Of a DNA stretch of 61,048 nucleotides, positions 722 through 40,191 are shown one piece after another. Source of the DNA: an uncultured Verrucomicrobiota bacterium (lineage in GTDB: Bacteria > Verrucomicrobiota > Kiritimatiellia > RFP12 > UBA3636); NCBI GenBank assembly GCA_946624575.1, contig CAMOSH010000002.1, forward strand, positions 1-61,048. Direction: 5' to 3'. Position 1 is the first letter of the stretch, and each line of letters starts with the position of its first letter. The translations under genes were made by a program, and so were the position numbers. The notes beneath the pieces are model-generated. The model did not search any database, was not told where the DNA came from, and worked only from the letters and a program-made list of their open reading frames with translations.

Positions 722-2878
722 ATGAACAAAAAATCACGACTGTCCACAGCCGTCGCGTCGGTCGTCGCCGCGTTTGTCCTCTGCGCACCCGCGTCAGGCA
801 CGTCCGCCTTCTCCGTCCACGGCTGCTTCGGCGACCACATGGTCCTGCAGCGCGACAAGCCGGTGCGCATCTCCGGCACCGCATCGCCAGGGACCGAGGT
901 GCGCGGGAGCTTCCGCGGCGCTTCCGTCGCGGTCGAAGCCGAGCAGGATGGCGAATGGACGCTAGAATTCCCCGCCGGAAGCGCCGGCGGGCCGTTCGAA
1001 CTCGTCATCGACGCCCGCTCCGCCGTAATCTTCCACGACGTCATGGTGGGCGAAGTATGGTTCTGCTCCGGGCAGTCGAACATGGAATACCCGGTGTGGC
1101 ATCCAGGCCCGTTCTGGGGACTGCCGGACGGCGAGGCCGTCGCCGCGGACGGAGATGCCGGCATCCGGCTTTTCCTTACGCCGCACGCGGTCGCGCCCGA
1201 CGGCCCGTGCGACGAGCCGCCAGGCCGTCCCGTCTGGCGTCTTGGCAGCGACCCGGCCGCCGTGAAGCCCTTCAGCGCGGTCGCCTGGTTCTTCGGGCGC
1301 GAACTGCGCCGCCGCCTCGGCCCCGACGTGCCGATCGGCCTCGTGCAATCGGCCTGGGGCGGCACCCGCATCGAGCCCTGGATTTCCGAGACGACATTCG
1401 CCGCGGCGTCGGAAACTGCACCGCTTGAGGCCATCGCATTCGCCAAGGCGGCGACTGGCGAAGAGTCCAAGGCCAGGATGGAGGAGCTCCGGCGCAAAGC
1501 CCGCGAAGACCTGGAAAACTGGCTGCGCGACAAATACTTTGCCCCCTTCGCGCAAGTCTCGGCCAAGGCTCTTGCGGAATGGGCCAGGCCCACGCTTCCC
1601 CCGGACGAGGAGGCGCAGTGGAAGCGCTGCGCCATGGGCGCCGGTGGCGGTCTTTCCAAAGTGGGAGTCACGTGGCACCGCCGCGAATTCGTCCTGCCCG
1701 AGGACTGGGCCGGCAAGGAAGTCGTCCTGCGCATCAAGACCCTGGACGACTGCGACGAAACGTTCCTCGACGGAGCCAAGATTGGAGAAACTGGAATCTC
1801 CACGCCGCAATACTGGGCACAGGAACGCGTCTATCGCGCGACCCTTTCCGCGACGGAAGGCGGCCGCCACGTGCTCGCCATCCGCCACCAGAACCACTTC
1901 ATGGTAGGACGCATCGCGGGACCAGTCACCATCACGCTGGCCGACGCCGACGACGCGAAGGTGACGCTTGACGGCGGCGAGTGGGCCGAGCGCGTGGAGT
2001 TCCACGTCGATCCCGCCTTCGCCGGAGTGCGCCCGTCCGCCGAAATGTTCGGCGCCGACCCGCGCACGTCGCAGCAAACCCCATCCACGCTCTTCAACGC
2101 CATGGTCGCCCCGTTCGCCCGCTACCCGATGCGCGGCGCGATCTGGTATCAGGGCTGTTCCAACGCCGGAAATCCTGACAAATACCGCGACTGGCAGCGG
2201 GAAATCGTCGAGGACTGGCGCAGGGTCTGGCGCGACCCGGGCTTCGTGTTCATCGGGACGCAGCTCGCGGCATTCCGCGCCCACCGCCCGAAAGAGCCCT
2301 TCCCCGACGACTTCTGGAAAAACGACACGCCGGAGAGCAATCCCGGATTCGCCCCGATCCGCGATTCGCAGACCGTGCTCTGCGACATTCCCGGCTGCGG
2401 ACTGGCCTGCGCGATCGACGCCGGCAACCCCGCCGACATCCACCCGTCGCAAAAGCGCGTCGTCGGCGAGCGTCTGGCGCACGAGGCGATGCGCCTCGCC
2501 TACGGCGACGCGGCGGCGCTGCCGGGGCCGCGCGGCGCCGCCGCGACGGCTGACGCCGACGGCACGGTGCGCGTCGCTCTGCGCGACGCCGGCGAGGGGA
2601 TCGAACTGCGCGGCGACGCTTCGGCGGCGGCGCATCTCTTCGCGCTCTTCCGCGAAGACGGCACGGGCGAATGGGCCGACGCCAGCCTCGGCGAAGACGG
2701 CGTTCTTCGCGTCCGCGCGCCCGGCATTGAGAGTCCCGTCCGCGTCGAATACGCCTGGAGCGCCTATCCGCCCGCCCCGTGCCTCTACCGCAAGGGGGAC
2801 GGGATTCCTCTCTTCCCCTTCCGCCTCGAAACTGCGTCGCTGGACGCCCAGCCCCCGAAGCCGACGGCGGCCCCGTAG
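722..2878 (+). CDS. Secreted sialate O-acetylesterase-like carbohydrate esterase (SGNH/DUF303 type)
   Basis: Lies in ORF 491..2878. The internal ATG at 722 gives a signal-peptide-like N-terminus (MNKKSRLSTAVASVVAAFVLCAPASG). It carries the GQSNM block (WFCSGQSNMEYP) and WYQGCSNAG, both typical of sialate 9-O-acetylesterase-like enzymes. Confidence 0.8.
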   Translation: MNKKSRLSTAVASVVAAFVLCAPASGTSAFSVHGCFGDHMVLQRDKPVRISGTASPGTEVRGSFRGASVAVEAEQDGEWTLEFPAGSAGGPFELVIDARSAVIFHDVMVGEVWFCSGQSNMEYPVWHPGPFWGLPDGEAVAADGDAGIRLFLTPHAVAPDGPCDEPPGRPVWRLGSDPAAVKPFSAVAWFFGRELRRRLGPDVPIGLVQSAWGGTRIEPWISETTFAAASETAPLEAIAFAKAATGEESKARMEELRRKAREDLENWLRDKYFAPFAQVSAKALAEWARPTLPPDEEAQWKRCAMGAGGGLSKVGVTWHRREFVLPEDWAGKEVVLRIKTLDDCDETFLDGAKIGETGISTPQYWAQERVYRATLSATEGGRHVLAIRHQNHFMVGRIAGPVTITLADADDAKVTLDGGEWAERVEFHVDPAFAGVRPSAEMFGADPRTSQQTPSTLFNAMVAPFARYPMRGAIWYQGCSNAGNPDKYRDWQREIVEDWRRVWRDPGFVFIGTQLAAFRAHRPKEPFPDDFWKNDTPESNPGFAPIRDSQTVLCDIPGCGLACAIDAGNPADIHPSQKRVVGERLAHEAMRLAYGDAAALPGPRGAAATADADGTVRVALRDAGEGIELRGDASAAAHLFALFREDGTGEWADASLGEDGVLRVRAPGIESPVRVEYAWSAYPPAPCLYRKGDGIPLFPFRLETASLDAQPPKPTAAP

Positions 2879-3138
2879 AGCGCCGCCGGGCCAGGATTCC
2901 TCCCATTCCAGGACTACCGTCGAAAGTCCGCGCGTTCGAGAACGAACGCTCACGCGGCCCTCGACGTCGATGCCGACGCACGTTTCGCCGTCATCCCACG
3001 AAGTTCCCGCAAACGGCAGGCGGCTAGTGAAATTTTCACCGCTAGCGACAACGACGTCGGGAGTCCTGAAACAATTCGCCGAGCTTAGAGGCGACTTCTT
3101 CGACATGGTGGATTTCATCCTAAATGTCGCAGTTGAAG

Positions 3139-3289
3139 TCTCACACAGAGGCACGGAGAACATTGGAAAATGGCTTTTGAAACCTTTGAAATCGCATGCG
3201 AGGCTTTCACCCAAAAGGTGCATTGAAACTGGGAACCATGTGCATCCATAAAACCATCAATCTCTGTGCCTCCGTGCCTCTGTGTGAGA
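3139..3289. repeat. Perfect 20-bp inverted repeat with 111-nt spacer (MITE-like or structured element)
   Basis: tctcacacagaggcacggag (3139-3158) is the exact reverse complement of ctccgtgcctctgtgtgaga (3270-3289). It shares the 10-mer ctccgtgcct with the inverted repeat at 443-452. Confidence 0.85.
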
Positions 3290-3390
3290 AAGTCTGTTCG
3301 TGTCAACTGCGTTTTTTAGGTTCATGGGGGCTTCCTATGCAAAATGCGCCACAGTGTCAAGCATTTTCAGAAAAATTTCGGAAATGGCCC

Positions 3391-3419
3391 TTGCCAGTTG
3401 CAACAAGTGCCACTACAAT
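3391..3419 (+). promoter_or_regulatory. Candidate sigma-70-like promoter of the STAS/phosphatase operon
   Basis: ttgcca (3391-3396), a 17-nt spacer, then tacaat (3414-3419), about 90 nt upstream of the STAS ATG. This is a consensus match only and promoter rules for this phylum are not verified. Confidence 0.35.
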
Positions 3420-3509
3420 CGCCCGCGCCGACAAACACGCCAGCAGGGCGCGCGCGTTCACGGGGCGGTGCCCGGGAGGCGCCATGCCCGATTTTCCAGG
3501 AGCAACACA

Positions 3510-3806
3510 ATGCAAATAACGAAAAACACCGCCAACGGACGCCTTTCCATGGCGCTCTCGGGCCGCCTCGACACCAATACCGCGCCCGAACTCGAAGAGG
3601 AACTCAAGCTCGACGGAGTGAACGAAATCGTCTTCGATTTCGCCGAACTCGAATACATATCGTCCGCCGGACTGCGCATCCTCATGACGGCGCAAAAGGC
3701 GATGATGGCCTGCGGCGGCAAGATGACGATCGAACACCCCAACGACATGGTCAAGGGAGTCTTCGACATGACCGGACTGAGCACGGTGTTCACGATCGCG
3801 CCATGA
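3510..3806 (+). CDS. STAS-domain anti-sigma-factor antagonist (RsbV/SpoIIAA family)
   Basis: AGGAG lies 7 nt upstream of ATG 3510. The product is 98 aa with a conserved phosphorylatable serine context (ELEYISSAGLRIL). It is the in-frame tail of ORF 3300..3806. Confidence 0.85.
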   Translation: MQITKNTANGRLSMALSGRLDTNTAPELEEELKLDGVNEIVFDFAELEYISSAGLRILMTAQKAMMACGGKMTIEHPNDMVKGVFDMTGLSTVFTIAP

Positions 3807-4546
3807 ACCGCCGCCGCGAACCGTCCGCATTCAGGGCCGCGGCGCTCGCCGCGGCCCTCCTGTCCGCCGCGGGCGCGGGCTGCTCGCGCGATCGCGCGGA
3901 AGTCGCCGCGACTCCGGGCGCGGACGATTCGCCTCTCGTCATCCTCACGACGACCCACACGCCGCCCTACTCCTACCCCGACGAAAAAACCGGGGAAATC
4001 GTGGGAATCGAAATCGACATAGCGCGCGCCGCCGCGGCCAAACTCGGCCGCAGGCTCGAAATACGCAAGGCGAAATTTCCCGAACTGCTGCCGCTCGTCA
4101 GCGAAGGAAAGGCCGACATGGCGGCGTCCGGGATCACGATAACAGAGGGCCGTCGGCAGGCCGTGGACTTTTCCGAGCCATACGCGACCGAAGGCGGGAT
4201 GTTCCTCTACCGGGCAGAGGAACCGATGCCGAGCATGATACGAGCCGAGACGCTTCGCGTCGGCACCATCGACGCCTCGACGTACGATTTCTATCTTACG
4301 TCGCACGACGTGGACCCCATACGCTACGACTCCTTCGAAAACGCAAAAAAGGATCTTGAGGACGGGAAGCTTGACGCCGTTTTCTTCGACAGCTGCGCGG
4401 TGAAAATCGTCGCCGGGGAATCGGGCGGCACCCTGGCCGCGTCGCGGCTTGAAACGCGCGAAAACTTCGGCTTCGTCGTCAGGAAGGGCAACGTTGCGCT
4501 GAAGGCGGCGCTCGACGAGGTCATCGTGGAGAGACAATTCAAATGA
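3803..4546 (+). CDS. Periplasmic solute-binding lipoprotein, amino-acid ABC type (SBP family 3)
   Basis: Its start shares an ATGA overlap with the STAS stop codon. It has a lipobox-like LSAAGAGC and SBP_bac_3-like blocks (GIEIDIARAAA, ASGITITEGRRQAVDFSEPY, DAVFFDS). Confidence 0.8.
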   Translation: MNRRREPSAFRAAALAAALLSAAGAGCSRDRAEVAATPGADDSPLVILTTTHTPPYSYPDEKTGEIVGIEIDIARAAAAKLGRRLEIRKAKFPELLPLVSEGKADMAASGITITEGRRQAVDFSEPYATEGGMFLYRAEEPMPSMIRAETLRVGTIDASTYDFYLTSHDVDPIRYDSFENAKKDLEDGKLDAVFFDSCAVKIVAGESGGTLAASRLETRENFGFVVRKGNVALKAALDEVIVERQFK

Positions 4547-32443: not shown

Positions 32444-32658
32444 TTTTTTGCGTTGTTGAGGATTCTGGTTAGCGGAAACGCGCGCCAATGCGGGCTTGAG
32501 GGCAATACTACCCCAAATGGCAACGGATTGCACGAAAAATCTTGAATTCGCGGACGTTCCCCCCGCGAATTCCGATTCTTGACCTTGGAGGGGGCTTGCG
32601 GCATACTCCGCCGCCGTTTTCGACTGATGTCCAGCACCTAAAAAAACTTCCCAGAAAG

Positions 32659-34344
32659 ATGAAAATCGCCGTCGGTTCGGATCATGCCGGTTTTGCCGCA
32701 AAAAAAACCATTCTCGAACATCTGGCCGCGCGCGGCTTCGCAGACGCGATTGATTTCGGCACGAAGTCGCCCGAATCGTGCGACTACCCGGATTTCGGAG
32801 AGGCGGTGGCCGTCGCGCTGGAGACGGGTGCGGCCGACAAGGGGATTCTGGTTTGCACCACGGGGGCCGGCATGACCATCGCCGCGAACCGCTTCCCTCA
32901 CGTCCGCGCCGCTCTCGCCATCACGGCGCTGGACGCCCGCACGATTCGCGACCACAACGACGCCAACGTGCTCGTGATCGCGGCCGAAAAAACGCCAGCC
33001 GAGGAAATCTGCGGCGTCGTCGACGCATTTCTCGACTCCGCCGGCCCCACCGTCGAGCGGCACTGCCGCCGCGTGGCGAAGCTCTCCGTGGAGGGCAACC
33101 GCCTGCTTGAGGTGGCCCATCTCAAGGATGCCGACCCCGCAGTCTACGGCGCCATCCTCAAGCACGCCGAGCAGGAGCGCACCTGCATCAACCTGATCGC
33201 CTCGGAAAACCTTACTTCGCGCGCCGTGCGCGAGGCCCAGGGTTCGGTTCTCACCAACAAGTACGCCGAGGGCTACCCGGGGAAGCGCTGGTATTCAGGA
33301 TGCCACTTCGTCGACGAAATCGAGCAGCTCGCGATCGACCGCGCGAAGGAGCTCTTCGGCGCGGAGGCCGCCAATGTCCAGCCGCACTGCGGGGCAAGCG
33401 CCAATCTCGCCGTCTACCTGGCCGTGCTTAACCCGGGCGACACGATTCTGTCGATGGCCCTCGACCAGGGAGGCCACCTCTCCCACGGGTCCCCCGCGAA
33501 TATTTCAGGGAAAATCTACAACATCGTCCCGTATGGCGTGGATCCGAAAACGGAACGCATCGACTACGACGCCCTGGAGGCCCTCGCCGTCGAGAAGAAG
33601 CCGCGCCTCATTCTCGCCGGCGCCAGCGCATATCCGCGCGTGCTCGACTTCGCCCGCTTCCGCGCCATAGCCGACAAGGTCGGAGCGTATCTGCTCGTGG
33701 ACATGGCGCACATAGCAGGTCTTGTCGCCGGCGGAGCCCATCCGTCGCCCGTGCCATACGCCGATTTCGTCACCACGACGACTCACAAGACTCTGCGCGG
33801 CCCGCGCGGCGGGCTCATCCTCTGCCGCGAAAAGTACATAAAGGACGTGAACCGCGCCGTCTTCCCCGGCCTGCAGGGCGGCCCGCTGGAGCAGGTGATC
33901 GCCGCGAAGGCCGTCTGCTTCAGGGAGGCGATGACCCAGGAATACAGGGACTGGGCGCATCAGGTAGTGCGCAACTGCGCCGCCATCGCCAGGGACTTGG
34001 TAGAGGACGGATTCAGGCTCGTCTCGGGCGGCACCGAAAACCACCTCTGCCTCGTCGACGTCACCACCAAGGGACTCACCGGCAAGGTCGCCGCCGCCGC
34101 GCTTGACGAAACCGGCATCATAGTGAACAAGAACACGATCCCGTTCGACAAAAACAGCCCGTTCGTGACATCCGGCATCCGCATTGGCACGGCCACCGTC
34201 ACGACGCGCGGCATGAAGGAACCGGAGATGAAATTCATCGCCGACCGCATCAAGCGGGTTCTCGCCGCTCCGGACGACGCCGCCGAAAAGGCTCGCGTCC
34301 GCGCCGAAGTCGCCGAATTCGTCACCCGCTTCCCCGTCCCCTAG
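32659..34344 (+). CDS. glyA: Bifunctional fusion: ribose-5-phosphate isomerase B (RpiB/LacAB) N-terminal domain plus serine hydroxymethyltransferase
   Basis: A single uninterrupted frame. The RpiB part is [12 protein letters not shown]...[15 protein letters not shown]...RDHNDANVL. The SHMT part is [34 protein letters not shown]...[14 protein letters not shown]. Confidence 0.85.
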
Positions 34345-34353
34345 GGATTCCCC

Positions 34354-34547
34354 CCCTCCCCGCGAAATTTCCAATTTGCATTTGCAAATTGCGAACGATT
34401 ATGATTTGTGAACAATGACGATTTGTTGCAATGATGATTTGCGAACAATTGACATTTGCGAACAATTGACATTTGTGAACAATGGGCATGGTGAAATCCG
34501 AAATGTCAGTGTGCCAAACCACTAGTTGCGACACCAACACTCCCGCC
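34354..34547. repeat. Direct repeat copy A (about 190 bp) of an AT-rich word-stutter element
   Basis: Matches 35118-35277 almost base for base, from ccctccccgcg...atttgcatttgcaaattgcgaacgatt... to ...ggcatggtgaaatccgaaatgtca.tgtgccaaaccactagttgcgacacc. Copy A carries an extra internal 34-bp duplication (tttgcgaacaattgaca x2). Confidence 0.9.
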
Positions 34548-34594
34548 ATCGCGCGGGGATATGCGCCACGGACGCGAGGGGCAGGCCGCCGCGA

Positions 34595-35045
34595 TCAACA
34601 CCGCCCGCCATCGCGGAAGTTCGTGGCGATGTCCTCGGACAGCATCTCGGAGTTGGATCCGGTAACATAGACATCCACGCCTTCCTTCTTCATCAGCGAA
34701 TTCAGGACGTCATAGAACGTCACGGGATTCTCCTCCCCTTTCGGGGGCCTGCACTCCTGGATTTCATCAATCAGCACGTAGGCACGGCGACCGTCATCCG
34801 GAAGCCGCTCCTTGATGTAGCTCGACAGGGCCTGCGGCGTCCGCAGGGTGGCGAAGTCATCGTTGTCGAGCTGGACGGCGACAACCTGCGAATCATCCAC
34901 GCCCGATTCGCGAAGCCAGTCCCGGAAGATGTGGAACAGGAAATAGCTTTTTCCGCACCGCCGGACACCAGTGACGACCTTGACGAGCCCGTTGTGCATA
35001 ACGGGGTTTGATTGCTTCCAGATAGTCGCCTCGTTCAATTCTCAT
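34595..35045 (-). pseudogene. Decayed AAA_14/DUF4143-type ATPase gene (frameshifted and 3'-truncated)
   Basis: ATG 35045 opens MRIERGDYLEAIKP in one frame. The P-loop part (GLVKVVTGVRRCGKSYFLF...YVLIDEIQ...VYVTGSNSEMLS) continues in another frame (ORF 34595..35038). It stops after about 147 aa, whereas this family is about 400 aa. Confidence 0.7.
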
Positions 35046-35117
35046 TGCCGTTCCTCGCGATGCAGGATATTGTAGAATTCTACAAATTTCCGCATTGGTC
35101 GAGACTCTACCAGATTG

Positions 35118-35277
35118 CCCTCCCCGCGCAACAGGAAATTTGCATTTGCAAATTGCGAACGATTGTGATTTGTGAACAATGACGATTTGTTGCAATGATG
35201 ATTTGTGAACAATGGGCATGGTGAAATCCGAAATGTCAATGTGCCAAACCACTAGTTGCGACACCGACACCGCCCAC
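35118..35277. repeat. Direct repeat copy B (about 160 bp) of the element at 34354-34547
   Basis: See copy A. It has the same orientation, and the two copies flank the ATPase pseudogene. Confidence 0.9.
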
Positions 35278-35416
35278 GCGCCGCGCGAGCCGCATCGAAG
35301 CGGCGGACTCCAGTCCGCCGTTGACTCCATGACAATATCCGCTGGACAGGTCTTGCCAGGCTAGACGTTGCCTAAAGCCGACGAGTACCCGGTGAATTCA
35401 AATTTGTCGGCGAATT

Positions 35417-36103
35417 TTAGGAAAATACCAATGATATGGTGGGCTTCACCGACATCACCCCAGGTCTCAATTGGACGAAAACCAAATCGTATTCACAACC
35501 ATCCAGCGGAAACGACTTGTCGAAAATCGGGCCTTTCGACATTTGTTTGTCTTCGAAACCGTACAGACGAATGCGCATCGACCACTGTCTAGCCGCAAAA
35601 GGAACGGCATGAATCTCGTGTTTGTTTTTGAATTCCACGTATGCGTCGACTTTCGTTCCGAACGCGATTTTGACGCCAGACGGAATCGACAGTGGATTCC
35701 AGGAAGAAAACGTTTCGACAATCACGGGAACGCAAAGCCACGTCGGATGCCGTGAATGGAATTCCCCCGCGACTCTTTTCAAGACGGCCTTGCGATCCAC
35801 CTCGTTCAAGGAAATAAACGGCCCTTGTGTTATTTCAGCGCAGTCCGCGACTACGGCTAACTTTTCACGCATTGCCTGTAGTCTCACTTCGGACAGGCCG
35901 ACCCTTGGCTTGTCAATATTAACAGTCGATGCGCCTCCACGACTGCATTGGGAACAAAGAAACGTCTTTTCGTCTTGATGTCGAATGCACAGGTCGTCCT
36001 TTCCACATTTCTTGCATCGAAACGTGTCTTCCGGGCGATTCTTCCTGCCGCAAATCGGGCAGATCAGCAAATCATTCTTCGTAGCAATCATGTGAATTGT
36101 CAT
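35417..36103 (-). CDS. Zinc-ribbon protein with unknown C-terminal domain (last gene of the Cys-peptide operon)
   Basis: The N-terminus has ICPICGRKNRPEDTFRCKKCGKDDLC...FLCSQCS (CxxC x3). The remaining 170 aa or so are unrecognised. It is on the same strand, 70 nt after precursor B, and is low in GC like its neighbours. Confidence 0.6.
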   Translation of the reverse strand: MTIHMIATKNDLLICPICGRKNRPEDTFRCKKCGKDDLCIRHQDEKTFLCSQCSRGGASTVNIDKPRVGLSEVRLQAMREKLAVVADCAEITQGPFISLNEVDRKAVLKRVAGEFHSRHPTWLCVPVIVETFSSWNPLSIPSGVKIAFGTKVDAYVEFKNKHEIHAVPFAARQWSMRIRLYGFEDKQMSKGPIFDKSFPLDGCEYDLVFVQLRPGVMSVKPTISLVFS

Positions 36104-36173
36104 CCATCAAAACACATTCGTTGTTCATCGCTCATTTTGGTCGGAAGAAAGGAAGTATGTCCCTTTTGAGAAA

Positions 36174-36440
36174 TCAACCGTATTGTCCGCCACAATTGTG
36201 TCCTGTCAATCCTTGGCATGTGTTTTTGCAAGAGCCAGCACACGAACCACCGCATCCATCCTCCGTGCAACTGCTTTCGCAGGTTCCGGCACAGTTGCCA
36301 CCACATGGAGAAGGACCGGAACAACCCCAACAAGCGAAGAAATCCGTGTCTGATTGAACTTCGTCTTTCATAAAATCATACGAAGCCGTCAATTCTGCAA
36401 CTCGTTCGAGATTGCTCAATTGAGATTTGGCTAACTTCAT
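36174..36440 (-). CDS. Cys-ladder precursor-like peptide B (88 aa, 11 Cys)
   Basis: The sequence is MKLAKSQLSNLERVAELTASYDFMKDEVQSDTDFFA-CWGCSGPSPCGGNCAGTCESSCTEDGCGGSCAGSCKNTCQGLTGHNCGGQYG. GAGG lies 8 nt upstream of ATG 36440 and overlaps the rSAM stop codon. The track's GTG at 36446 is an alternative start. Confidence 0.7.
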   Translation of the reverse strand: MKLAKSQLSNLERVAELTASYDFMKDEVQSDTDFFACWGCSGPSPCGGNCAGTCESSCTEDGCGGSCAGSCKNTCQGLTGHNCGGQYG

Positions 36441-36450
36441 TTCCACGACC

Positions 36451-37602
36451 TCAATAAGCCTCTACTTCATCCGCCAGCGTCTCTTGGATAAGCTTGACGC
36501 CCCTCGCCACAGCAAGTTTCTCAGATGGTTTCATCTTGGCAATTGTCGGATATTTCTCCGGGTCCTGAAGCATCATTCCATACAGCCAGGATGCGGCAAC
36601 GGCTTCCACTCTTCTGAACTTGCACAGAGACTTGTCTCTTGAAAAAAGCGTCCCGGTGCGCAGGTAGTTGTTTCCATAACAGGACGGACAGGCAGAATCG
36701 CAAATGCAATCAATGCAATGCGGATCCCGAAAATTTACATCATCTGCAAAATCAATTTTGCTGGCTATTCCACTCCCTCCCTCCATGCCGGAACTTGGCA
36801 TGAACGCCTGACATGGATATGTTTTCCCGTCAGGAGCAAGACACGACATAGCCGTCCCTGTTCCACACCATTTCCTCTTTTTTTGTTTGTCGGCACGTCT
36901 CGAATCCGCTCCAATTCTTGAGACAATATGTGCAAACAACGACGGCGGCTCCAAATCTGGGTTCTCAAGATAGAACTCGGCGACTTTTTGCAGTTCCTCG
37001 CGGTAAACGGGAAGCAAGTCCTCTGACCATTGCATCCCATATGCAAGATTGATGGAATATTTGAATCCAAGTTCCACGATGTGTTTAACTCCATCCGCAA
37101 AATCGTGAATCGACGCTGGAGAAACGGTTGCTTTCACTCCCTGAAAAGGCCATGTGTCACGGAAAAAGGCAAAATCAATCTTGTCGTACGAATCCGAACG
37201 ATTTGCATCATGCTGCGCCTTCGTCCCGTCAAGACTCAGTCCAAGAACAAATCGTTTTGAATTCTTTCGAAACCACTCCTTTATGTCGCCGTGAACGAGC
37301 GTTCCGTTAGTGGTCGCATAGCAGATGTAGGGCTTGGGCCAGGGCCGACTCCAAATCCATTCAGCGATTTCACGGATTGTGTCAAAGGCCAGCATCGGCT
37401 CCCCACCATGGAAATCAACCTCGAATTCGTCAAAGCCATCAAGACTTTTTGTTTCCTTCAGCAAATGTTCCTTGGCTACGGCAATTGGCAGTATTGCCAA
37501 GTCCTTGGCGCGCTCATAACAGTACACGCAATTTAAATTGCAACGTTCAGTGATTGCGATTTGAACGATTCGTCGTTTTTTGTCTATTGACGGAGTTCTC
37601 AT
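36451..37602 (-). CDS. Radical SAM enzyme with C-terminal SPASM domain (peptide-maturase type)
   Basis: Contains AITERCNLNCVYCYE (CxxxCxxC), FHGGEPML, and a C-terminal Cys set (WCGTGTAMSCLAPDGKTYPC...HCIDCICDSACPSCYG...C). Start 37602 is preferred because ATG 37635 lies inside a strong hairpin. Confidence 0.85.
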   Translation of the reverse strand: MRTPSIDKKRRIVQIAITERCNLNCVYCYERAKDLAILPIAVAKEHLLKETKSLDGFDEFEVDFHGGEPMLAFDTIREIAEWIWSRPWPKPYICYATTNGTLVHGDIKEWFRKNSKRFVLGLSLDGTKAQHDANRSDSYDKIDFAFFRDTWPFQGVKATVSPASIHDFADGVKHIVELGFKYSINLAYGMQWSEDLLPVYREELQKVAEFYLENPDLEPPSLFAHIVSRIGADSRRADKQKKRKWCGTGTAMSCLAPDGKTYPCQAFMPSSGMEGGSGIASKIDFADDVNFRDPHCIDCICDSACPSCYGNNYLRTGTLFSRDKSLCKFRRVEAVAASWLYGMMLQDPEKYPTIAKMKPSEKLAVARGVKLIQETLADEVEAY

Positions 37603-37623
37603 TTCGACCTTGTTGTGAATACA

Positions 37624-37657
37624 ACCGGCCCCCATGGTCTCGCCGTTGGGGGCCGGT
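37624..37657 (-). terminator. Intra-operon stem-loop after precursor A (partial terminator or mRNA-stabilising hairpin)
   Basis: ccggccccc (37625-37633) pairs with gggggccgg (37648-37656), plus an A-T closing pair, around a 14-nt loop. It starts 9 nt after the TAA of precursor A. Only a weak U-rich tail follows (UGUAUU). Confidence 0.5.
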
Positions 37658-37665
37658 CATCATGA

Positions 37666-37845
37666 TTACATGTATTTTCCGCCGCAACTTGTCGAACAGC
37701 TGTTGCTGCAACCTTCTTCGCAAGAGTTTCCGCAACCCCAGCAACTGGATTCCGATTCAAATTCCGTTTCAACGGCTTGAATTTCGGAATCGAGCGATGA
37801 CGCAAATGCGTCAACAGCGGCCATGATTTCGTCGTTCAGTTTCAT
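37666..37845 (-). CDS. Cys-ladder precursor-like peptide A (59 aa, 6 Cys)
   Basis: The sequence is MKLNDEIMAAVDAFASSLDSEIQAVETEFESESS-CWGCGNSCEEGCSNSCSTSCGGKYM. AGGA lies 5 nt upstream of ATG 37845. It is the tail of track ORF 37666..38007, whose 5' part overlaps the upstream gene. Confidence 0.75.
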   Translation of the reverse strand: MKLNDEIMAAVDAFASSLDSEIQAVETEFESESSCWGCGNSCEEGCSNSCSTSCGGKYM

Positions 37846-37925
37846 CTTTATCCTTTCATTTTTCCTGCCCGTTTTCAAAAGCGAACTGGATGGGCAAATT
37901 CCAATTCGCAAACATTCGGTTTCCG

Positions 37926-38684
37926 TCACCTGACCCAACCGCGGCCGGAACAAACGGAACATGACTGCTGCATGGTACGCCATCCCCTGCCGTTGCATTT
38001 CAGACACGGAAGGCTTTCAGGAAGGCGGTTGCCGCCGAACAACCCGTTCACGATCGGCATTGCCGGGGATGACAGCACACCGTCCCCGTCGCATTGTTCG
38101 CATCTGACATCGACTGTCTGACGTCCGGTGCCATTGCAGTACCCGCACTGCATCGCCGGTTCAAGGGAGCCTCGTTCAGGGAACATCCACCCCGGATCGG
38201 CGTCCCATCTCCCTTCCTGCGCGGCGCTTCGTATGTGCCGATGCTTCTTGTGGCGCGCTCCCACCTGCCACCGGCAACTGGCTTCGAACCGCCGAACCGC
38301 CTCCACGGCGGAGTTCATCAGAGCCGGGGCGGCAATGAAGTCGTCCCGGTCTATCGCCCGGTTGAGTTTTCGCACTGCGGATCGAGCCGCATTCGCCGCA
38401 GGGCGATCAAATGAGTATCCGCCTTCGGCACGCGCATCGATGCGCTTCTCAAGCTCTGACGCCTGAAATACGAATGTCTCCTTTGCTCCGGCCCCCCAGT
38501 CCAGGGCCAGCTGACGCTGCTCCGGCGTCATCCTTTCGGGATGACGCATGGCCTTTTCGCTTTCAGTTCGGCCCTCTGACGCACGTTCGACCGCCGCGCG
38601 CAGCGAATCCACGGTGAAGGATCCATCGGACAAATACCACCAAAAACCGAAAAACGCGATTGCTACTAAGAACAATGTCTTCAT
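37926..38684 (-). CDS. Membrane-anchored protein with a DnaJ-type cysteine-rich zinc-finger domain (4 x CxxCxGxG)
   Basis: Has an N-terminal TM segment (TLFLVAIAFFGFWWYL). The C-terminus carries CGYCNGTG, CEQCDGDG, CLKCNGRG and CSVCSGRG. There is no J-domain. Confidence 0.75.
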   Translation of the reverse strand: MKTLFLVAIAFFGFWWYLSDGSFTVDSLRAAVERASEGRTESEKAMRHPERMTPEQRQLALDWGAGAKETFVFQASELEKRIDARAEGGYSFDRPAANAARSAVRKLNRAIDRDDFIAAPALMNSAVEAVRRFEASCRWQVGARHKKHRHIRSAAQEGRWDADPGWMFPERGSLEPAMQCGYCNGTGRQTVDVRCEQCDGDGVLSSPAMPIVNGLFGGNRLPESLPCLKCNGRGWRTMQQSCSVCSGRGWVR

Positions 38685-38716
38685 GAAGATGTCATTGCAA
38701 TGGAACCGTTCATCCG

Positions 38717-39382
38717 TCAGAAAATGGCATTGCGGAACGCCGCATCGGCGCGCTCCCGTTCGGCCGCCTCGGCTGCGGCGGCATTTCTCGCGACAAGATC
38801 GAGTTCCCGGGCCTTTTCCGCCGTCCAGGACATTTGACGAGCTGCGGCTCCGGCGTTGTCCTCCAGCATTGCGGACACGAGCGACGCATCGAGCTGGTCC
38901 AGGCGGGACTGTGTTCTGGCGCGCCCCTCCGCCAGCTGCGCGTAGTGCCGATCAGCGGCGACTGTACCGCCCATCCGCGTCACGAGGTCGCGCCGCTGGG
39001 CCAGAATTGAATCCCACCGGACAAGCTGCGCCTTCAAATTCGCCCGCGACTGGGATACGGCCGTCTTGAATTCCGGTCTCCGGGCAAGATATGCGTTGAT
39101 TTCGCGCTCGCGCTGCGTGGCGTTCCACGAATTGAGCCTCGTCATCCCGGAAGAATATCCGGAACCTGTCATGACGCGCGATGTCTGCACCGAGGAAATC
39201 GGCGGCGCGGACTGCGACGTCTGCCATCCGCCGCCATAGCCGCCCTGGGACATTCCACGATTGGCGACCGGATACGCTCCATACATGTCGGCGCATCCGG
39301 ACACAAGAAAAATCGCGCAACCGACAATCACCAGAACGGAAGGGCGGGCGACGACAGTCAAAAATCCGACGCGCGTGTTCAT
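38717..39382 (-). CDS. Lipoprotein with Gly/Ser-rich linker and coiled-coil C-terminal half
   Basis: Has a lipobox (IFLVSGC). Its start shares an ATGA overlap with the upstream stop codon. There is no recognised family. Confidence 0.6.
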   Translation of the reverse strand: MNTRVGFLTVVARPSVLVIVGCAIFLVSGCADMYGAYPVANRGMSQGGYGGGWQTSQSAPPISSVQTSRVMTGSGYSSGMTRLNSWNATQREREINAYLARRPEFKTAVSQSRANLKAQLVRWDSILAQRRDLVTRMGGTVAADRHYAQLAEGRARTQSRLDQLDASLVSAMLEDNAGAAARQMSWTAEKARELDLVARNAAAAEAAERERADAAFRNAIF

Positions 39383-40191
39383 GGCGCAAAAGCCCTCGAC
39401 TTCAAGTCTTCGTCCGTCGGATCGCGCGTCCCCTGTTCCTTAATCTCCGTGATGCCGACGCTGATCTGTCCGGGCAGCGAGGTCAGTTTTCCGGTGTCGC
39501 GGCCTTCCTCCTCGACGCCCTTCGAGATTTTATTGGCTTCGACCAGCGGAGATATCGCTTCAAGCTGGAACAGCGTGCCTTCCAGCAATTCGACATATTC
39601 CCTAATCTTCCGTTCGTTCTCCCTGGCCGCGCCGGGAACGCGCGACAACTTGTCCACTTGCGCGCCAATGGCGTCGGCGCGGGCGCGAATGTCGGCGGCG
39701 GCCACCAGAAGATCGTGCTTCGTCTGATATACGAAATTGCCGACCTGCACGGGATATGACGCAGCCGGATCTTCGACAATGAGTTTCGCCTCGCCAAGGA
39801 CACGCCGCAGTCCCGCCTGTTGTGCCTTGAGTTCCTCCACGTTGCGGTCCGTTCCCTCCCGCGATCCGATCGCACGAATGCGCAACGCCTCAAGCGCTTC
39901 TATTTTCGCAAGTATCTTTTCGCGGGCGACTCTCTGCATTTTTTCTGGCTGGGTCCGGATTTCACGCAAGGAAAAGCCCAGAAGATTTTCAATTTCATTC
40001 GTGAAGCCGGACTTTGTCGCAAGTTCACTTTCTTCGTATTCTTCGTCCTGCGCGGCTTCCAGCCCGGCCTTTTCGCGCAGGTGGCTTCCGGCGGCCTTCA
40101 CGATGTCGCCCATGCCAAGCACGTCGAGAAGGACGCACACGATCAGAACCGCGCCGCACGCGATGGCGACGTTGAGAAAGATTCTGTTCAT
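39379..40191 (-). CDS. TM-anchored coiled-coil protein (paralog 2)
   Basis: Has an N-terminal TM segment (IFLNVAIACGAVLIVCVLL). The central block ASYPVQVGNFVYQ resembles ARFPVTVGDYRYD of the upstream gene. There are ATGA overlaps at both ends. Confidence 0.6.
   Translation of the reverse strand: MNRIFLNVAIACGAVLIVCVLLDVLGMGDIVKAAGSHLREKAGLEAAQDEEYEESELATKSGFTNEIENLLGFSLREIRTQPEKMQRVAREKILAKIEALEALRIRAIGSREGTDRNVEELKAQQAGLRRVLGEAKLIVEDPAASYPVQVGNFVYQTKHDLLVAAADIRARADAIGAQVDKLSRVPGAARENERKIREYVELLEGTLFQLEAISPLVEANKISKGVEEEGRDTGKLTSLPGQISVGITEIKEQGTRDPTDEDLKSRAFAP

What the first reader, a model, noticed from the sequence alone, without database searches (positions are those of the whole stretch)
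36174..37845. RiPP-like core: a SPASM radical-SAM enzyme bracketed by two CWGC-(Cx3C)n Cys-ladder peptides
Seen in sequence: a 59-aa ORF (37845-37666) with AGGA 5 nt upstream ends in CWGCGNSCEEGCSNSCSTSCGGKYM, which has 6 Cys in the last 25 residues. An 88-aa ORF (36440-36174) ends in CWGCSGPSPCGGNCAGTCESSCTEDGCGGSCAGSCKNTCQGLTGHNCGGQYG (11 Cys), and its GAGG RBS overlaps the enzyme's stop codon. Both peptides start MKL. Both have Cys-free, acidic, helix-prone N-terminal halves (leader-like) and enter the core through the same CWGC motif, followed by an almost regular Cx3C ladder rich in G/S/N/E/T. Between them lies a 383-aa enzyme with CNLNCVYC and a C-terminal Cys set laid out like a SPASM domain. 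Established knowledge: SPASM radical-SAM enzymes encoded next to small Cys-rich ORFs install thioether or related crosslinks, as in sactipeptides and ranthipeptides (SCIFF/CteB, PapB). Inference: this is a two-precursor, one-maturase system whose precursor family I do not recognise. The small ORFs are easy for gene callers to miss, and the enzyme is likely to be auto-annotated as a generic radical SAM or sulfatase maturase.
Basis: partly seen in the sequence, partly recalled or inferred. Interest (0 to 1): 0.85.

Follow-up and report, generated by a model that had tools for sequence, protein, structure and literature searches.

The report
Cysteine-ladder peptides with radical-SAM maturase
Two small genes encoding peptides with a cysteine at every fourth residue flank a radical-SAM enzyme that most likely cross-links them; this is a real, divergent example of a peptide-modification system predicted from genomes years ago, whose chemistry has never been determined.

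Summary
Two Cys-ladder ORFs (59 and 88 aa) bracket a 383-aa radical-SAM enzyme with CX3CX2C and a 7-Cys SPASM motif. They are the only such ladders in the 61-kb window.

The genes are real:
- The peptide-enzyme-peptide layout recurs in three other loci.
- 48 of 64 homologous loci carry an adjacent same-strand Cys-cluster peptide.
- The pepA core shows mostly synonymous change between loci.

The enzyme is not a sulfatase maturase (46 bits against a 349 cutoff). Its best matches are TIGR04115 (CXXX-repeat-target maturase, 128.6 bits, cutoff 350) and PapB (122.4, cutoff 340). The closest solved structure is CteB. It passes no curated cutoff and is about 27% identical to true TIGR04115 members, so it is an unmodelled sister clade of about 300 clusters at 50% identity.

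The precursors belong to a recognised class, Haft's "Cys-Xaa-Xaa-Xaa repeat radical SAM target" (TIGR04114/04117, Pfam PF27846).

New details:
- a conserved CWGC entry motif and a C-x-x-x-Tyr end;
- a strong hairpin between the precursor and enzyme genes;
- a low-GC islet in a PVC-group genome;
- mosaic reassortment of core and maturase alleles.

Thioether cross-linking is inferred, not shown. Verdict: new variant of a known kind, moderate interest.

The parts
37666..37845 (-). pepA: 59-aa precursor (stop codon included). The leader is residues 1-34 (37845..37744) and the core is residues 35-59 (37743..37669): CWGCGNSCEEGCSNSCSTSCGGKYM.
   Evidence: ORF and RBS were read directly. The leader is identical in L087 while the core differs. 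The core is nearly identical in L171 and L172 while the leaders have diverged. Across the 25 core codons there are 8-13 synonymous and 3-4 non-synonymous differences. TIGR04117 gives a weak hit of 13.2 bits.
37621..37660 (-). GC-rich RNA hairpin (14-bp stem) between the pepA stop and the enzyme start, followed by UUGUAUU. It is a candidate attenuator or transcript stabiliser that would set the precursor:enzyme ratio.
   Evidence: Folding gives -31.1 kcal/mol, z = -4.39, with 0 of 200 shuffles folding as well. Hairpins in the same position but with unrelated sequence occur in L087, L171, L172, L084 and L090. They are absent in L081 and L088. The function is inferred.
36451..37602 (-). 383-aa radical SAM/SPASM peptide maturase without an N-terminal RRE domain. 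The alternative ATG at 37635 would give 394 aa; homologues support 383.
   Evidence: CX3CX2C (C21, C25, C28) and 7 invariant SPASM Cys. NCBIfam best matches are TIGR04115 at 128.6 bits and PapB at 122.4 bits, both below cutoff. PDB profile best is CteB at 1.7e-37, aligned to CteB residues 96-451. The AF2 model has pLDDT 90.5, and Foldseek best is CteB with TM 0.70.
36174..36440 (-). pepB: 88-aa precursor (stop codon included). The leader is residues 1-36 (36440..36333) and the core of 52 aa with 11 Cys runs 36332..36177. The GAGG RBS overlaps the enzyme's stop codon.
   Evidence: It is 100% identical in L087. The orthologue in L172 has a conserved leader and a diverged core, with 42 identical codons, 17 synonymous-only differences and 26 amino-acid-changing differences. 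TIGR04114 scores 15.5 bits against a cutoff of 20.
34750..37900 (.). Low-GC islet (about 0.48-0.52 against about 0.62-0.67 in the flanks) that carries the system. It also holds an unrelated 228-aa ORF (35417-36103) and an AAA_14 ATPase fragment.
   Evidence: Composition profile. Similar low-GC patches surround the homologous genes in high-GC contigs L089, L090, L087 and L172. The 228-aa ORF is conserved only in the syntenic L087, not with the enzyme family.

Best explanation
This is a minimal RiPP-type operon, pepA - hairpin - maturase - pepB, on a horizontally acquired low-GC islet in a PVC-group bacterium.

Proposed mechanism:
- The acidic, Cys-free leaders of the two peptides dock on the maturase. 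The maturase has no RRE domain, so binding probably uses its SPASM or C-terminal helical region.
- The enzyme's SAM-bound [4Fe-4S] cluster generates a 5'-deoxyadenosyl radical that abstracts a hydrogen atom from a core residue.
- The resulting carbon radical is captured by a neighbouring Cys thiolate, with the auxiliary clusters accepting the electron.
- Repeated along the C-x-G-[G/S/T] ladder, this would give a series of small in-line thioether (sactionine or ranthionine type) rings.

Classification: the system is a divergent sister clade of Haft's CXXX-repeat-target radical SAM system (TIGR04115 with TIGR04114/04117) and of PapB.

Shown:
- the genes are real;
- the enzyme-peptide association holds across the family;
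- the enzyme has radical SAM/SPASM architecture;
- its nearest relatives are thioether-forming peptide maturases;
- the core is under purifying selection.

Inferred:
- that both peptides are substrates;
- that the modification is a thioether;
- which atoms are linked;
- that the hairpin tunes stoichiometry;
- the product's function. No protease or exporter is encoded nearby, so the product may act inside the cell or depend on unlinked genes, as is the case for SCIFF.
For: Enzyme-peptide association:
- The enzyme family is tightly associated with C-terminal Cys-cluster peptides: 48 of 64 loci, a 6.5-fold enrichment.
- Strict Cx3C ladders occur next to the enzyme in many phyla.
- The layout is identical in L087, L084 and L172.
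- MKL leaders, CWGC entry and C-x-x-x-Y ends are conserved in the close clade.

RiPP-like evolution of the precursors:
- In L087 the pepA leader is identical and the core differs.
- In L171 and L172 the core is nearly identical and the leaders have diverged.
- Core codon changes are mostly synonymous.

Enzyme:
- CX3CX2C plus 7 invariant SPASM Cys.
- Full-length best matches are TIGR04115 and PapB.
- The closest solved structure is the thioether-forming CteB, both by sequence profile and by fold.
- True TIGR04115 members (L057 at 382.9 bits, L058 at 357 bits) also sit beside Cx3C/Cx2C ladder proteins.

Peptide class:
- Related peptides carry Pfam PF27846.
- One is named 'Cys-Xaa-Xaa-Xaa repeat radical SAM target protein'.

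Operon feature:
- A hairpin sits between the precursor and maturase genes in 6 of 8 loci examined.
Against: - No chemistry has been determined for any CXXX-repeat system found in the held literature.
- The enzyme fails every curated family cutoff.
- The cores lack the regular Asp/Glu partners that PapB uses. pepA has only two Glu, and position i+4 is always Cys, so the acceptor residue is unknown.
- Most of the enzyme family, including this enzyme, carries an eighth Cys (C254) at a position where CteB has none. If it ligates auxiliary cluster I, the open iron site that CteB uses to bind substrate Cys would be absent, as in anSME.
- No leader protease, exporter or immunity gene is present.
- There is no expression evidence, and the promoter and terminator scans were uninformative.
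Confidence: 0.6

Rival explanations
1. The enzyme modifies the ladder cysteines themselves rather than cross-linking them. One route is anSME-like C-beta hydrogen abstraction that converts Cys to formylglycine or another oxidised or desulfurised residue. Another is Cys-to-Cys-derived links.
For: - anSME is the second-best structural and sequence relative in the PDB (E 8e-16, TM 0.62).
- An eighth Cys (C254) lies in the auxiliary cluster I region, where anSME has full Cys ligation.
- The cores lack obvious conserved acceptor residues. x1 is variable, x2 is Gly in 61% of units, and x3 is G/S/T.
Against: - anSME family models score only 46 bits and match only the N-terminal radical SAM core.
- The full-length best matches are thioether-forming or predicted peptide-crosslinking maturases.
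- No sulfatase-like target motif or sulfatase gene is present.
Confidence: 0.12
2. The enzyme forms carbon-carbon cyclophane (triceptide-like) or other cross-links at the conserved aromatic residues: the W of CWGC and the Y of C-x-x-x-Y. In this view the Cys ladder serves another role, such as binding metal or an Fe-S cluster.
For: - An aromatic residue is conserved at the core entry: W, or F in L172.
- Tyr is conserved near the C-terminus in the close clade.
- CGSNY repeats occur in Bacteroidaceae relatives.
- There are weak N-terminal matches to cyclophane-forming YhhB, XyeB and AmcB, and ChlB has TM 0.66.
- A distant CXXX-repeat protein carries a twin-arginine-like signal, a route typically used by cofactor-bearing proteins.
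Against: - The aromatic residues are not universal: CRDC, CRGGC and CGAC entries occur, and many cores lack W and Y.
- Matches to cyclophane maturases cover only the generic radical SAM core and score far below TIGR04115 and PapB.
- The invariant feature across the family is the Cys cluster.
Confidence: 0.1
3. The peptides are unmodified metallothionein-like metal-binding or redox peptides. Their position next to the radical SAM gene would then reflect co-regulation or a role as a sulfur or Fe-S donor, not substrate status.
For: - Cys density and Gly/Ser-rich spacers resemble metal-binding peptides.
- There is no protease or exporter.
Against: - The leader/core organisation has an independently evolving conserved leader and a swappable core.
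- The association with one enzyme family is tight and strand-specific across many phyla.
- The enzyme's relatives are leader-dependent peptide maturases.
Confidence: 0.08
4. The small ORFs are chance reading frames and the enzyme acts on something else.
For: - pepB and its relatives are absent from protein databases.
- Gene callers skip them.
Against: - They are the only two ladders in the six frames of the 61-kb window, and both abut the enzyme on its strand.
- Orthologues in four loci show an excess of synonymous change.
- RBS motifs are present.
- The association holds family-wide.
Confidence: 0.02

Closest known systems
CXXX-repeat peptide / radical SAM maturase system (NCBIfam TIGR04115 maturase; TIGR04114 and TIGR04117 targets; Pfam PF27846). 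It is defined bioinformatically and has no published chemistry in the held literature.
   Same: - A radical SAM/SPASM enzyme of about 360-390 aa without an RRE sits next to one or more small proteins whose C-terminal part has Cys at every fourth residue.
- TIGR04115 is the top NCBIfam hit and aligns over its full length.
- Relatives of the peptides carry PF27846 or reach TIGR04114.
- True TIGR04115 loci (L057, L058) have the same ladder motif.
   Different: - The enzyme scores 128.6 bits against a cutoff of 350 and is about 27% identical to true members. All 26 sampled homologues fail the cutoff.
- The peptides here are short (59 and 88 aa), have acidic leaders, enter the core through CWGC and end in C-x-x-x-Y. 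They flank the enzyme on both sides.
- True TIGR04115 loci sampled here carry longer and more irregular Cx2C/Cx3C proteins.
PapB / freyrasin (PapA) ranthipeptide system (NF047865)
   Same: - The match is full length at nearly the same score (122.4 bits; PapB is the best family for some homologues).
- The precursor has a periodic Cys-X3 motif repeated several times. PapB makes one in-line thioether per motif and tolerates varied spacing (PMC9413430).
   Different: - The score is below the cutoff of 340.
- PapA's motif is Cys-X3-Asp/Glu with a carboxylate acceptor. Here position i+4 is Cys, and acidic residues are sparse and irregular.
CteB / SCIFF (thermocellin) ranthipeptide maturase (TIGR03974; PDB 5WGG and 5WHY)
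   Same: - It is the closest solved structure by sequence profile (E 1.7e-37) and by fold (TM 0.70).
- The 7-Cys SPASM motif aligns residue for residue.
- The gene pair is minimal, with no dedicated protease or exporter.
   Different: - This enzyme lacks the CteB N-terminal RRE domain of about 95 aa; the alignment starts at CteB residue 96.
- TIGR03974 scores 86.7 bits against a cutoff of 425.
- The substrates are not SCIFF peptides.
Anaerobic sulfatase-maturating enzyme (anSME; TIGR03942; PDB 4K36)
   Same: It has the radical SAM plus SPASM fold with no RRE, is of similar length, and acts on Cys in a peptide context.
   Different: - It scores only 46 bits, over the N-terminal 130 residues.
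- No sulfatase is nearby.
- The family-wide neighbours are Cys-cluster peptides, not sulfatases.

Membership tests
TIGR04115 (radical SAM peptide maturase, CXXX-repeat target family) | HMM score at or above the curated cutoff (350 bits) | tested here: not met
   The score is 128.6 bits, although this is the top hit and aligns over model positions 4-355 of 359. None of 26 homologues reaches the cutoff. L057 and L058 do reach it, at 382.9 and 357 bits.
TIGR04115 (radical SAM peptide maturase, CXXX-repeat target family) | Radical SAM CX3CX2C plus a SPASM auxiliary-cluster Cys motif | tested here: met
   C21, C25 and C28 plus seven C-terminal Cys are invariant in 26 sequences. They align with the SPASM Cys of CteB.
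TIGR04115 (radical SAM peptide maturase, CXXX-repeat target family) | Adjacent small proteins with repeated Cys-X-X-X | tested here: met
   pepA has Cys spacings 2,3,3,3,3 and pepB has 2,5,3,3,3,4,3,3,3,7. The association is conserved across the family.
TIGR04114 / TIGR04117 / Pfam PF27846 (Cys-Xaa-Xaa-Xaa repeat radical SAM target) | HMM score at or above the cutoff (20 bits for TIGR04114, 50 bits for TIGR04117) | tested here: not met
   pepB scores 15.5 bits on TIGR04114 and pepA scores 13.2 bits on TIGR04117. Relatives found with a profile of the close clade mostly carry PF27846, and P0136 reaches 25 bits on TIGR04114. PF27846 is not in the local Pfam copy, so the window peptides could not be scored against it.
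PapB family ranthipeptide maturase (NF047865) | HMM score at or above 340 bits | tested here: not met
   122.4 bits. The best among 26 homologues is E 3.2e-45, still below the cutoff.
PapB family ranthipeptide maturase (NF047865) | Substrate with repeated Cys-X3-Asp/Glu motifs | tested here: not met
   Residue i+4 after each ladder Cys is Cys. pepA's core has 2 acidic residues and pepB's core has 3. The motif definition comes from PMC9413430.
SCIFF maturase (TIGR03974, CteB-like) | HMM score at or above 425 bits and an N-terminal RRE domain | tested here: not met
   The score is 86.7 bits, aligned to model positions 101-439 only. The CteB alignment starts at residue 96. The radical SAM motif begins at residue 21 of the enzyme.
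Anaerobic sulfatase maturase (TIGR03942, NF010321) | HMM score at or above 349 bits and a cognate sulfatase | tested here: not met
   The score is 46.1 bits, covering residues 17-144 only. No sulfatase is found among the neighbours.
Sactipeptide / ranthipeptide (chemical class) | Cys sulfur to alpha, beta or gamma carbon thioether bonds in the mature peptide | not testable with these tools
   This needs MS/MS and NMR of the modified peptide. Here it is only inferred from the enzyme's relatives.

The most novel reading that the evidence does not exclude
This unmodelled radical SAM/SPASM clade (about 300 clusters at 50% identity) may install a cross-link type not yet described. One example is a continuous series of four-residue thioether rings, in which each Cys links to a backbone or side-chain carbon of the preceding or following C-x-G-[GST] unit, capped by modifications at the conserved Trp and Tyr. 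That would give a rigid poly-thioether ladder peptide. In addition, core cassettes and maturase alleles would be exchanged by recombination between strains as a diversification mechanism.
Probability: 0.2. Interest if true: 0.75.

Novelty: new variant of a known kind. Interest (0 to 1): 0.45.

Why it matters
- **An open chemistry question.** Radical SAM systems that target CXXX-repeat peptides were predicted from genomes more than a decade ago. No chemistry for them was found in the literature searched here. What a radical enzyme does to a peptide with Cys at every fourth residue is therefore still open.
- **A convenient test case.** This locus is compact: one 383-aa enzyme without an RRE domain and two short precursors. 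Natural variants are available, including one leader with two different cores and one core type paired with two enzyme alleles.
- **An annotation gap.** About 300 clusters (50% identity) of this enzyme pass no curated family model, and their precursor genes are often not called.
- **Evolutionary interest.** The mosaic exchange of core and maturase between otherwise 99%-identical genomes suggests diversifying selection on the product.

Tried and rejected
- **Promoter and terminator scan** (35200-38200): counts were no higher than in shuffled sequence, so it was uninformative. PVC promoters may not fit the sigma-70 consensus.
- **Rfam** (34000-39000, E up to 1): no match, so no riboswitch or known leader RNA.
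- **PHROGs** on the neighbouring genes: nothing relevant.
- **The 228-aa downstream ORF as a system component:** rejected. It has only sub-threshold zinc-ribbon matches, and tblastn finds it only in the syntenic L087, not in 89 other loci.
- **The upstream 252-aa DnaJ-zinc-finger-like protein as a component:** rejected. It lies in host-GC sequence and recurs only in syntenic PVC contigs.
- **pepB homology search:** no hits, because the peptide and its relatives are not in the protein database.
- **Literature:** four searches found no experimental study of CXXX-repeat systems. The Bacteroidales RiPP-mining paper (PMC10352776) uses 'CX3C' only within the radical SAM motif CX3CX2C. Haft and Basu 2011 (PMC3133131) is not held.
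- **anSME identity:** rejected on HMM scores and gene context.
- **Genome-contig collection:** its best match to the enzyme is 41% identity, so close relatives had to be taken from metagenome contigs.
Full report
**1. Observation**

The minus strand between 37845 and 36174 carries the three ORFs exactly as described.

- **pepA** (37845..37666, 59 aa) reads MKLNDEIMAAVDAFASSLDSEIQAVETEFESESS-CWGCGNSCEEGCSNSCSTSCGGKYM. AGGA lies 5 nt before its ATG.
- **The enzyme** (37602..36451, 383 aa) contains CNLNCVYC.
- **pepB** (36440..36174, 88 aa) reads MKLAKSQLSNLERVAELTASYDFMKDEVQSDTDFFA-CWGCSGPSPCGGNCAGTCESSCTEDGCGGSCAGSCKNTCQGLTGHNCGGQYG. Its GAGG overlaps the enzyme's TGA.
- **Cys spacing.** pepA has 6 Cys with spacings 2,3,3,3,3. 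pepB has 11 Cys with spacings 2,5,3,3,3,4,3,3,3,7.
- **Leaders.** Both are Cys-free and acidic.

A regular-expression scan of all six frames of the 61-kb window finds Cys ladders only in these two ORFs.

**2. The enzyme**

- **Conserved cysteines.** In an alignment of 26 homologues (39-78% identity), the radical SAM cysteines C21, C25 and C28 are invariant. So are seven C-terminal cysteines: C246, C264, C296, C299, C305, C308 and C327.
- **SPASM motif.** A PDB profile search aligns these seven one-to-one with the SPASM cysteines of CteB. The only difference is CX2CX5CX2C where CteB has CX2CX5CX3C.
- **Pfam.** The local copy reports only Radical_SAM and Fer4_12.
- **NCBIfam.** TIGR04115 (CXXX-repeat-target peptide maturase) ranks first at 128.6 bits and PapB second at 122.4 bits, both aligned over their full length. 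SCIFF maturase scores 86.7 bits. Anaerobic sulfatase maturase scores only 46.1 bits, over residues 17-144.
- **No curated family fits.** No cutoff is reached by this protein or by any of the 26 homologues.
- **Solved structures.** CteB is closest (E 1.7e-37, aligned to CteB residues 96-451, which is after its RRE domain). anSME follows at 8e-16.
- **Predicted structure.** The AlphaFold2 model is confident (pLDDT 90.5). Foldseek ranks CteB first (TM 0.70), then anSME (0.62) and ChlB (0.66).

The enzyme is therefore a radical SAM/SPASM peptide maturase without an RRE.

**3. Relation to the known CXXX-repeat family**

Enzymes from ten distant loci were scanned against NCBIfam.

- Those in L057 and L058 (Ruminococcaceae and Oscillospiraceae MAGs) pass the TIGR04115 cutoff, at 382.9 and 357 bits.
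- They are only about 27% identical to the window enzyme.
- They sit beside longer Cx3C/Cx2C-repeat proteins.

The window enzyme thus belongs to a sister clade with the same type of neighbour. An exhaustive HMMER search of 1.84 billion representatives finds 301 clusters (50% identity) at E ≤ 1e-30 and 2090 at E ≤ 1e-10. Where homologues are named at all, they are called 'radical SAM protein', '4Fe-4S cluster-binding domain-containing protein' or 'hypothetical protein'.

**4. Are the peptides conserved next to homologues?**

Yes.

- **Strict ladders.** Of 80 genome loci, 31 have a strict (Cx3)≥3C ladder. Among the loci whose enzyme is at least about 30% identical, the ladder lies almost always immediately upstream or downstream of the enzyme on the same strand. 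The taxa span Parcubacteria, Anaerolineae, Chlorobiaceae, Opitutales, Acidobacteria, Methanosarcinales and others.
- **Broader criterion.** The test asked for at least 3 Cys within 11 residues after residue 20. By this test 48 of 64 family loci have such an ORF within 700 bp on the enzyme's strand. The density is 0.68 per kb, against 0.10 per kb elsewhere in the same loci.
- **Shorter cores.** Many Bacteroidales relatives have shorter cores, for example GCFGCGFGCSDTVGG, CSGCANCSGIVGD and repeated CxCTGGCGSNY.
- **Repeat unit.** Over 67 peptides and 266 Cx3C units, the unit is C-x1-x2-x3. Position x1 is variable, x2 is Gly in 61%, and x3 is Gly, Ser or Thr in 72%.

**5. The close clade (63-91% identical enzymes, from metagenome contigs)**

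- **L081-L083** carry five tandem precursors upstream, of the form MKL…DCW[GD]CSGSC…NY[GNS].
- **L084** has the window's layout: an upstream peptide (…NGCWGCGGGC…CGGQYN) and a downstream one. Neither was called as a gene.
- **L088** has …NFCWGCDGVCEGDC….
- **L171 and L172** have pepA-type peptides whose cores are almost identical to the window's: CWGCGNSCENGCSNSCSTSCGGQYC and CFGCGNSCENGCSNSCSTSCGGEYL. Their leaders have diverged.
- **Selection on the core.** Across the 25 core codons there are 8-13 synonymous and only 3-4 non-synonymous differences per pair. This indicates purifying selection on a translated product.
- **L172** also has a pepB orthologue downstream of the enzyme, a third ladder peptide, and a second radical SAM enzyme. 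That second enzyme is TIGR04463-like at 245.7 bits, below its cutoff of 525.
- **Peptide class.** A profile of the close-clade peptides retrieves 52 database proteins. Most carry Pfam PF27846 (tSAM_targ_Cxxx_rpt). NCBI names one of them 'Cys-Xaa-Xaa-Xaa repeat radical SAM target protein'.
- **Database absence.** pepB itself and its relatives are absent from the database.

**6. Mosaic evolution**

L087 is syntenic with window 39600..35241.

- **Flanks.** It is about 99% identical in the flanks.
- **Divergent tract.** Identity falls to 49-83% from the first codon of the pepA core (about 37720) to the 3' end of the enzyme gene (about 36500).
- **What differs.** The pepA leader and the whole of pepB are identical. 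The pepA core is different (CWGCGNACSSDCTGGCEGSCENGCKDGCKDQCRDQYN) and the enzyme is 78% identical.
- **Allele relationships.** The L087 enzyme is 91% identical to that of L172, yet L172's pepA core is the window's type.

Core types and enzyme alleles therefore reassort. This is what leader-guided, core-tolerant maturation would allow. It also points to recombination within the locus.

**7. Operon features and genomic setting**

- **Hairpin.** A 14-bp GC-rich hairpin (37660..37621; -31.1 kcal/mol, z = -4.4) lies between the pepA stop and the enzyme start. Equivalent hairpins of unrelated sequence occupy the same position in L087, L171, L172, L084 and L090, but not in L081 or L088. By analogy with other RiPP operons (my own knowledge, not tested here), it could attenuate read-through or stabilise the precursor transcript.
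- **Low-GC islet.** The system sits in a stretch of about 0.48 GC within a genome of about 0.64 GC.
- **Host.** The host's SHMT is closest to Verrucomicrobia and Pontiella (PVC) MAGs, at 63-68% identity.
- **Neighbours.** No protease, exporter, immunity gene or sulfatase lies nearby.
- **The 228-aa ORF.** This downstream ORF is not associated with the enzyme family.

**8. Mechanism**

- **Best supported.** The best-supported reading is leader-dependent, radical-mediated cross-linking of ladder cysteines to nearby carbons (thioethers). All full-length relatives with known chemistry (PapB, CteB/SCIFF, QhpD) do this.
- **Status.** This is inferred, not shown.
- **Points against a simple PapB-like scheme.** There is no regular Asp/Glu partner. 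An eighth Cys (C254) is also present in most of the family at a position where CteB has no Cys. That could close the auxiliary cluster I site that CteB uses to bind substrate Cys.
- **Rivals.** The alternatives are anSME-like oxidation of the cysteines, cyclophane formation at the conserved Trp and Tyr, and unmodified metal-binding peptides. They are listed separately with the experiments that would separate them.

**9. Comparison and novelty**

- **What it works like.** The system works like Haft's CXXX-repeat radical SAM systems and like PapB/freyrasin.
- **Membership.** By curated thresholds it is a member of neither enzyme family, and the window peptides fall just below the target-family cutoffs.
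- **Literature.** No experimental paper on this class was found in the held literature.
- **Rating.** I rate it a new variant of a known, bioinformatically predicted kind. It is real, well supported and a good experimental entry point, but not categorically new.
- **Interest.** 0.45.

Noticed in passing
window 39600-35241 compared with L087 (whole contig): Two otherwise about 99%-identical genomes differ sharply (49-83% nucleotide identity) only from the start of the pepA core to the 3' end of the maturase gene. A 93-96% patch lies at 37200-37400. The pepA leader and pepB are identical. The L087 enzyme allele matches L172 (91%), while L172's core matches the window's. This points to recombination and reassortment of core and enzyme cassettes.
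   Followed up: yes
window 34354-34540 and 35118-35270: A direct repeat of about 190 bp (90-97% identity) flanks a truncated AAA_14 ATPase ORF (34595-35038) at the edge of the low-GC islet. Each copy contains tandem units of about 17 nt (ATTTGYGAACAAT...). It may be a mobile-element or iteron-like remnant.
   Followed up: partly
window 32542-34344 (+): A single 600-aa ORF combines a LacAB_rpiB (ribose-5-phosphate isomerase B) domain at residues 42-181 with a full SHMT domain at residues 194-568. It is either a gene fusion or two adjacent genes in one frame with no intervening stop.
   Followed up: no
L067 about 2626-3900; L069 about 1788-3500; L076 about 1653-3300: Margulisiibacteriota and Termititenax contigs encode very long proteins (hundreds of residues) made almost entirely of Cx3C/Cx2C repeats. 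They lie just upstream of TIGR04115-like enzymes that score 272-275 bits, below the cutoff of 350.
   Followed up: partly
P0136 (Porphyromonadaceae MAG, 106 aa): A CXXX-repeat target protein (TIGR04114 at 25 bits, above cutoff) has an N-terminal twin-arginine-like signal (RRQFFKKAAKATLPILGAIVA...). This hints that some members of the class are exported, possibly folded or carrying a cofactor. The window peptides have no such signal.
   Followed up: no
L172 3113-6664: An expanded version of the locus holds a second radical SAM/SPASM enzyme (434 aa, with an N-terminal extension; TIGR04463-like at 245.7 bits, cutoff 525). It also holds a Cys-rich 61-aa ORF upstream, a third ladder peptide (…GCWASCEGSCDGSC…), and then the pepA-enzyme-pepB unit.
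   Followed up: partly
L001, L005, L022, L030, L041, L045, L050, L051, L061 (downstream or upstream of the enzyme): Bacteroidales and Alistipes relatives of the enzyme pair with much shorter cores that end in a conserved G-C-x-x-C-x-x-x-C-[ST]-G-I-V-G-[GD] motif. L051 has three tandem copies. Bacteroidaceae and Prevotella loci (L014, L044, L074, L025) have repeated C-x-C-x-G-G-C-G-S-N-Y units. These look like distinct precursor subfamilies for the same enzyme family.
   Followed up: partly
window 37926-38684 (-); L087 1068-1826; L172 1035-1913: A 252-aa protein with DnaJ-type CXXCXGXG zinc-finger repeats but no J domain lies immediately upstream of the islet, in host-GC sequence. It recurs at the same position in related PVC contigs. 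The islet content downstream of it varies, so this may be an insertion hotspot.
   Followed up: partly
window enzyme residue C254 (about 36841-36843): An eighth Cys lies between the first two SPASM cysteines. It is present in about three quarters of the 26 aligned homologues, but the equivalent position is not Cys in CteB. It could complete the ligation of auxiliary cluster I as in anSME, which bears on how substrate Cys is bound.
   Followed up: no
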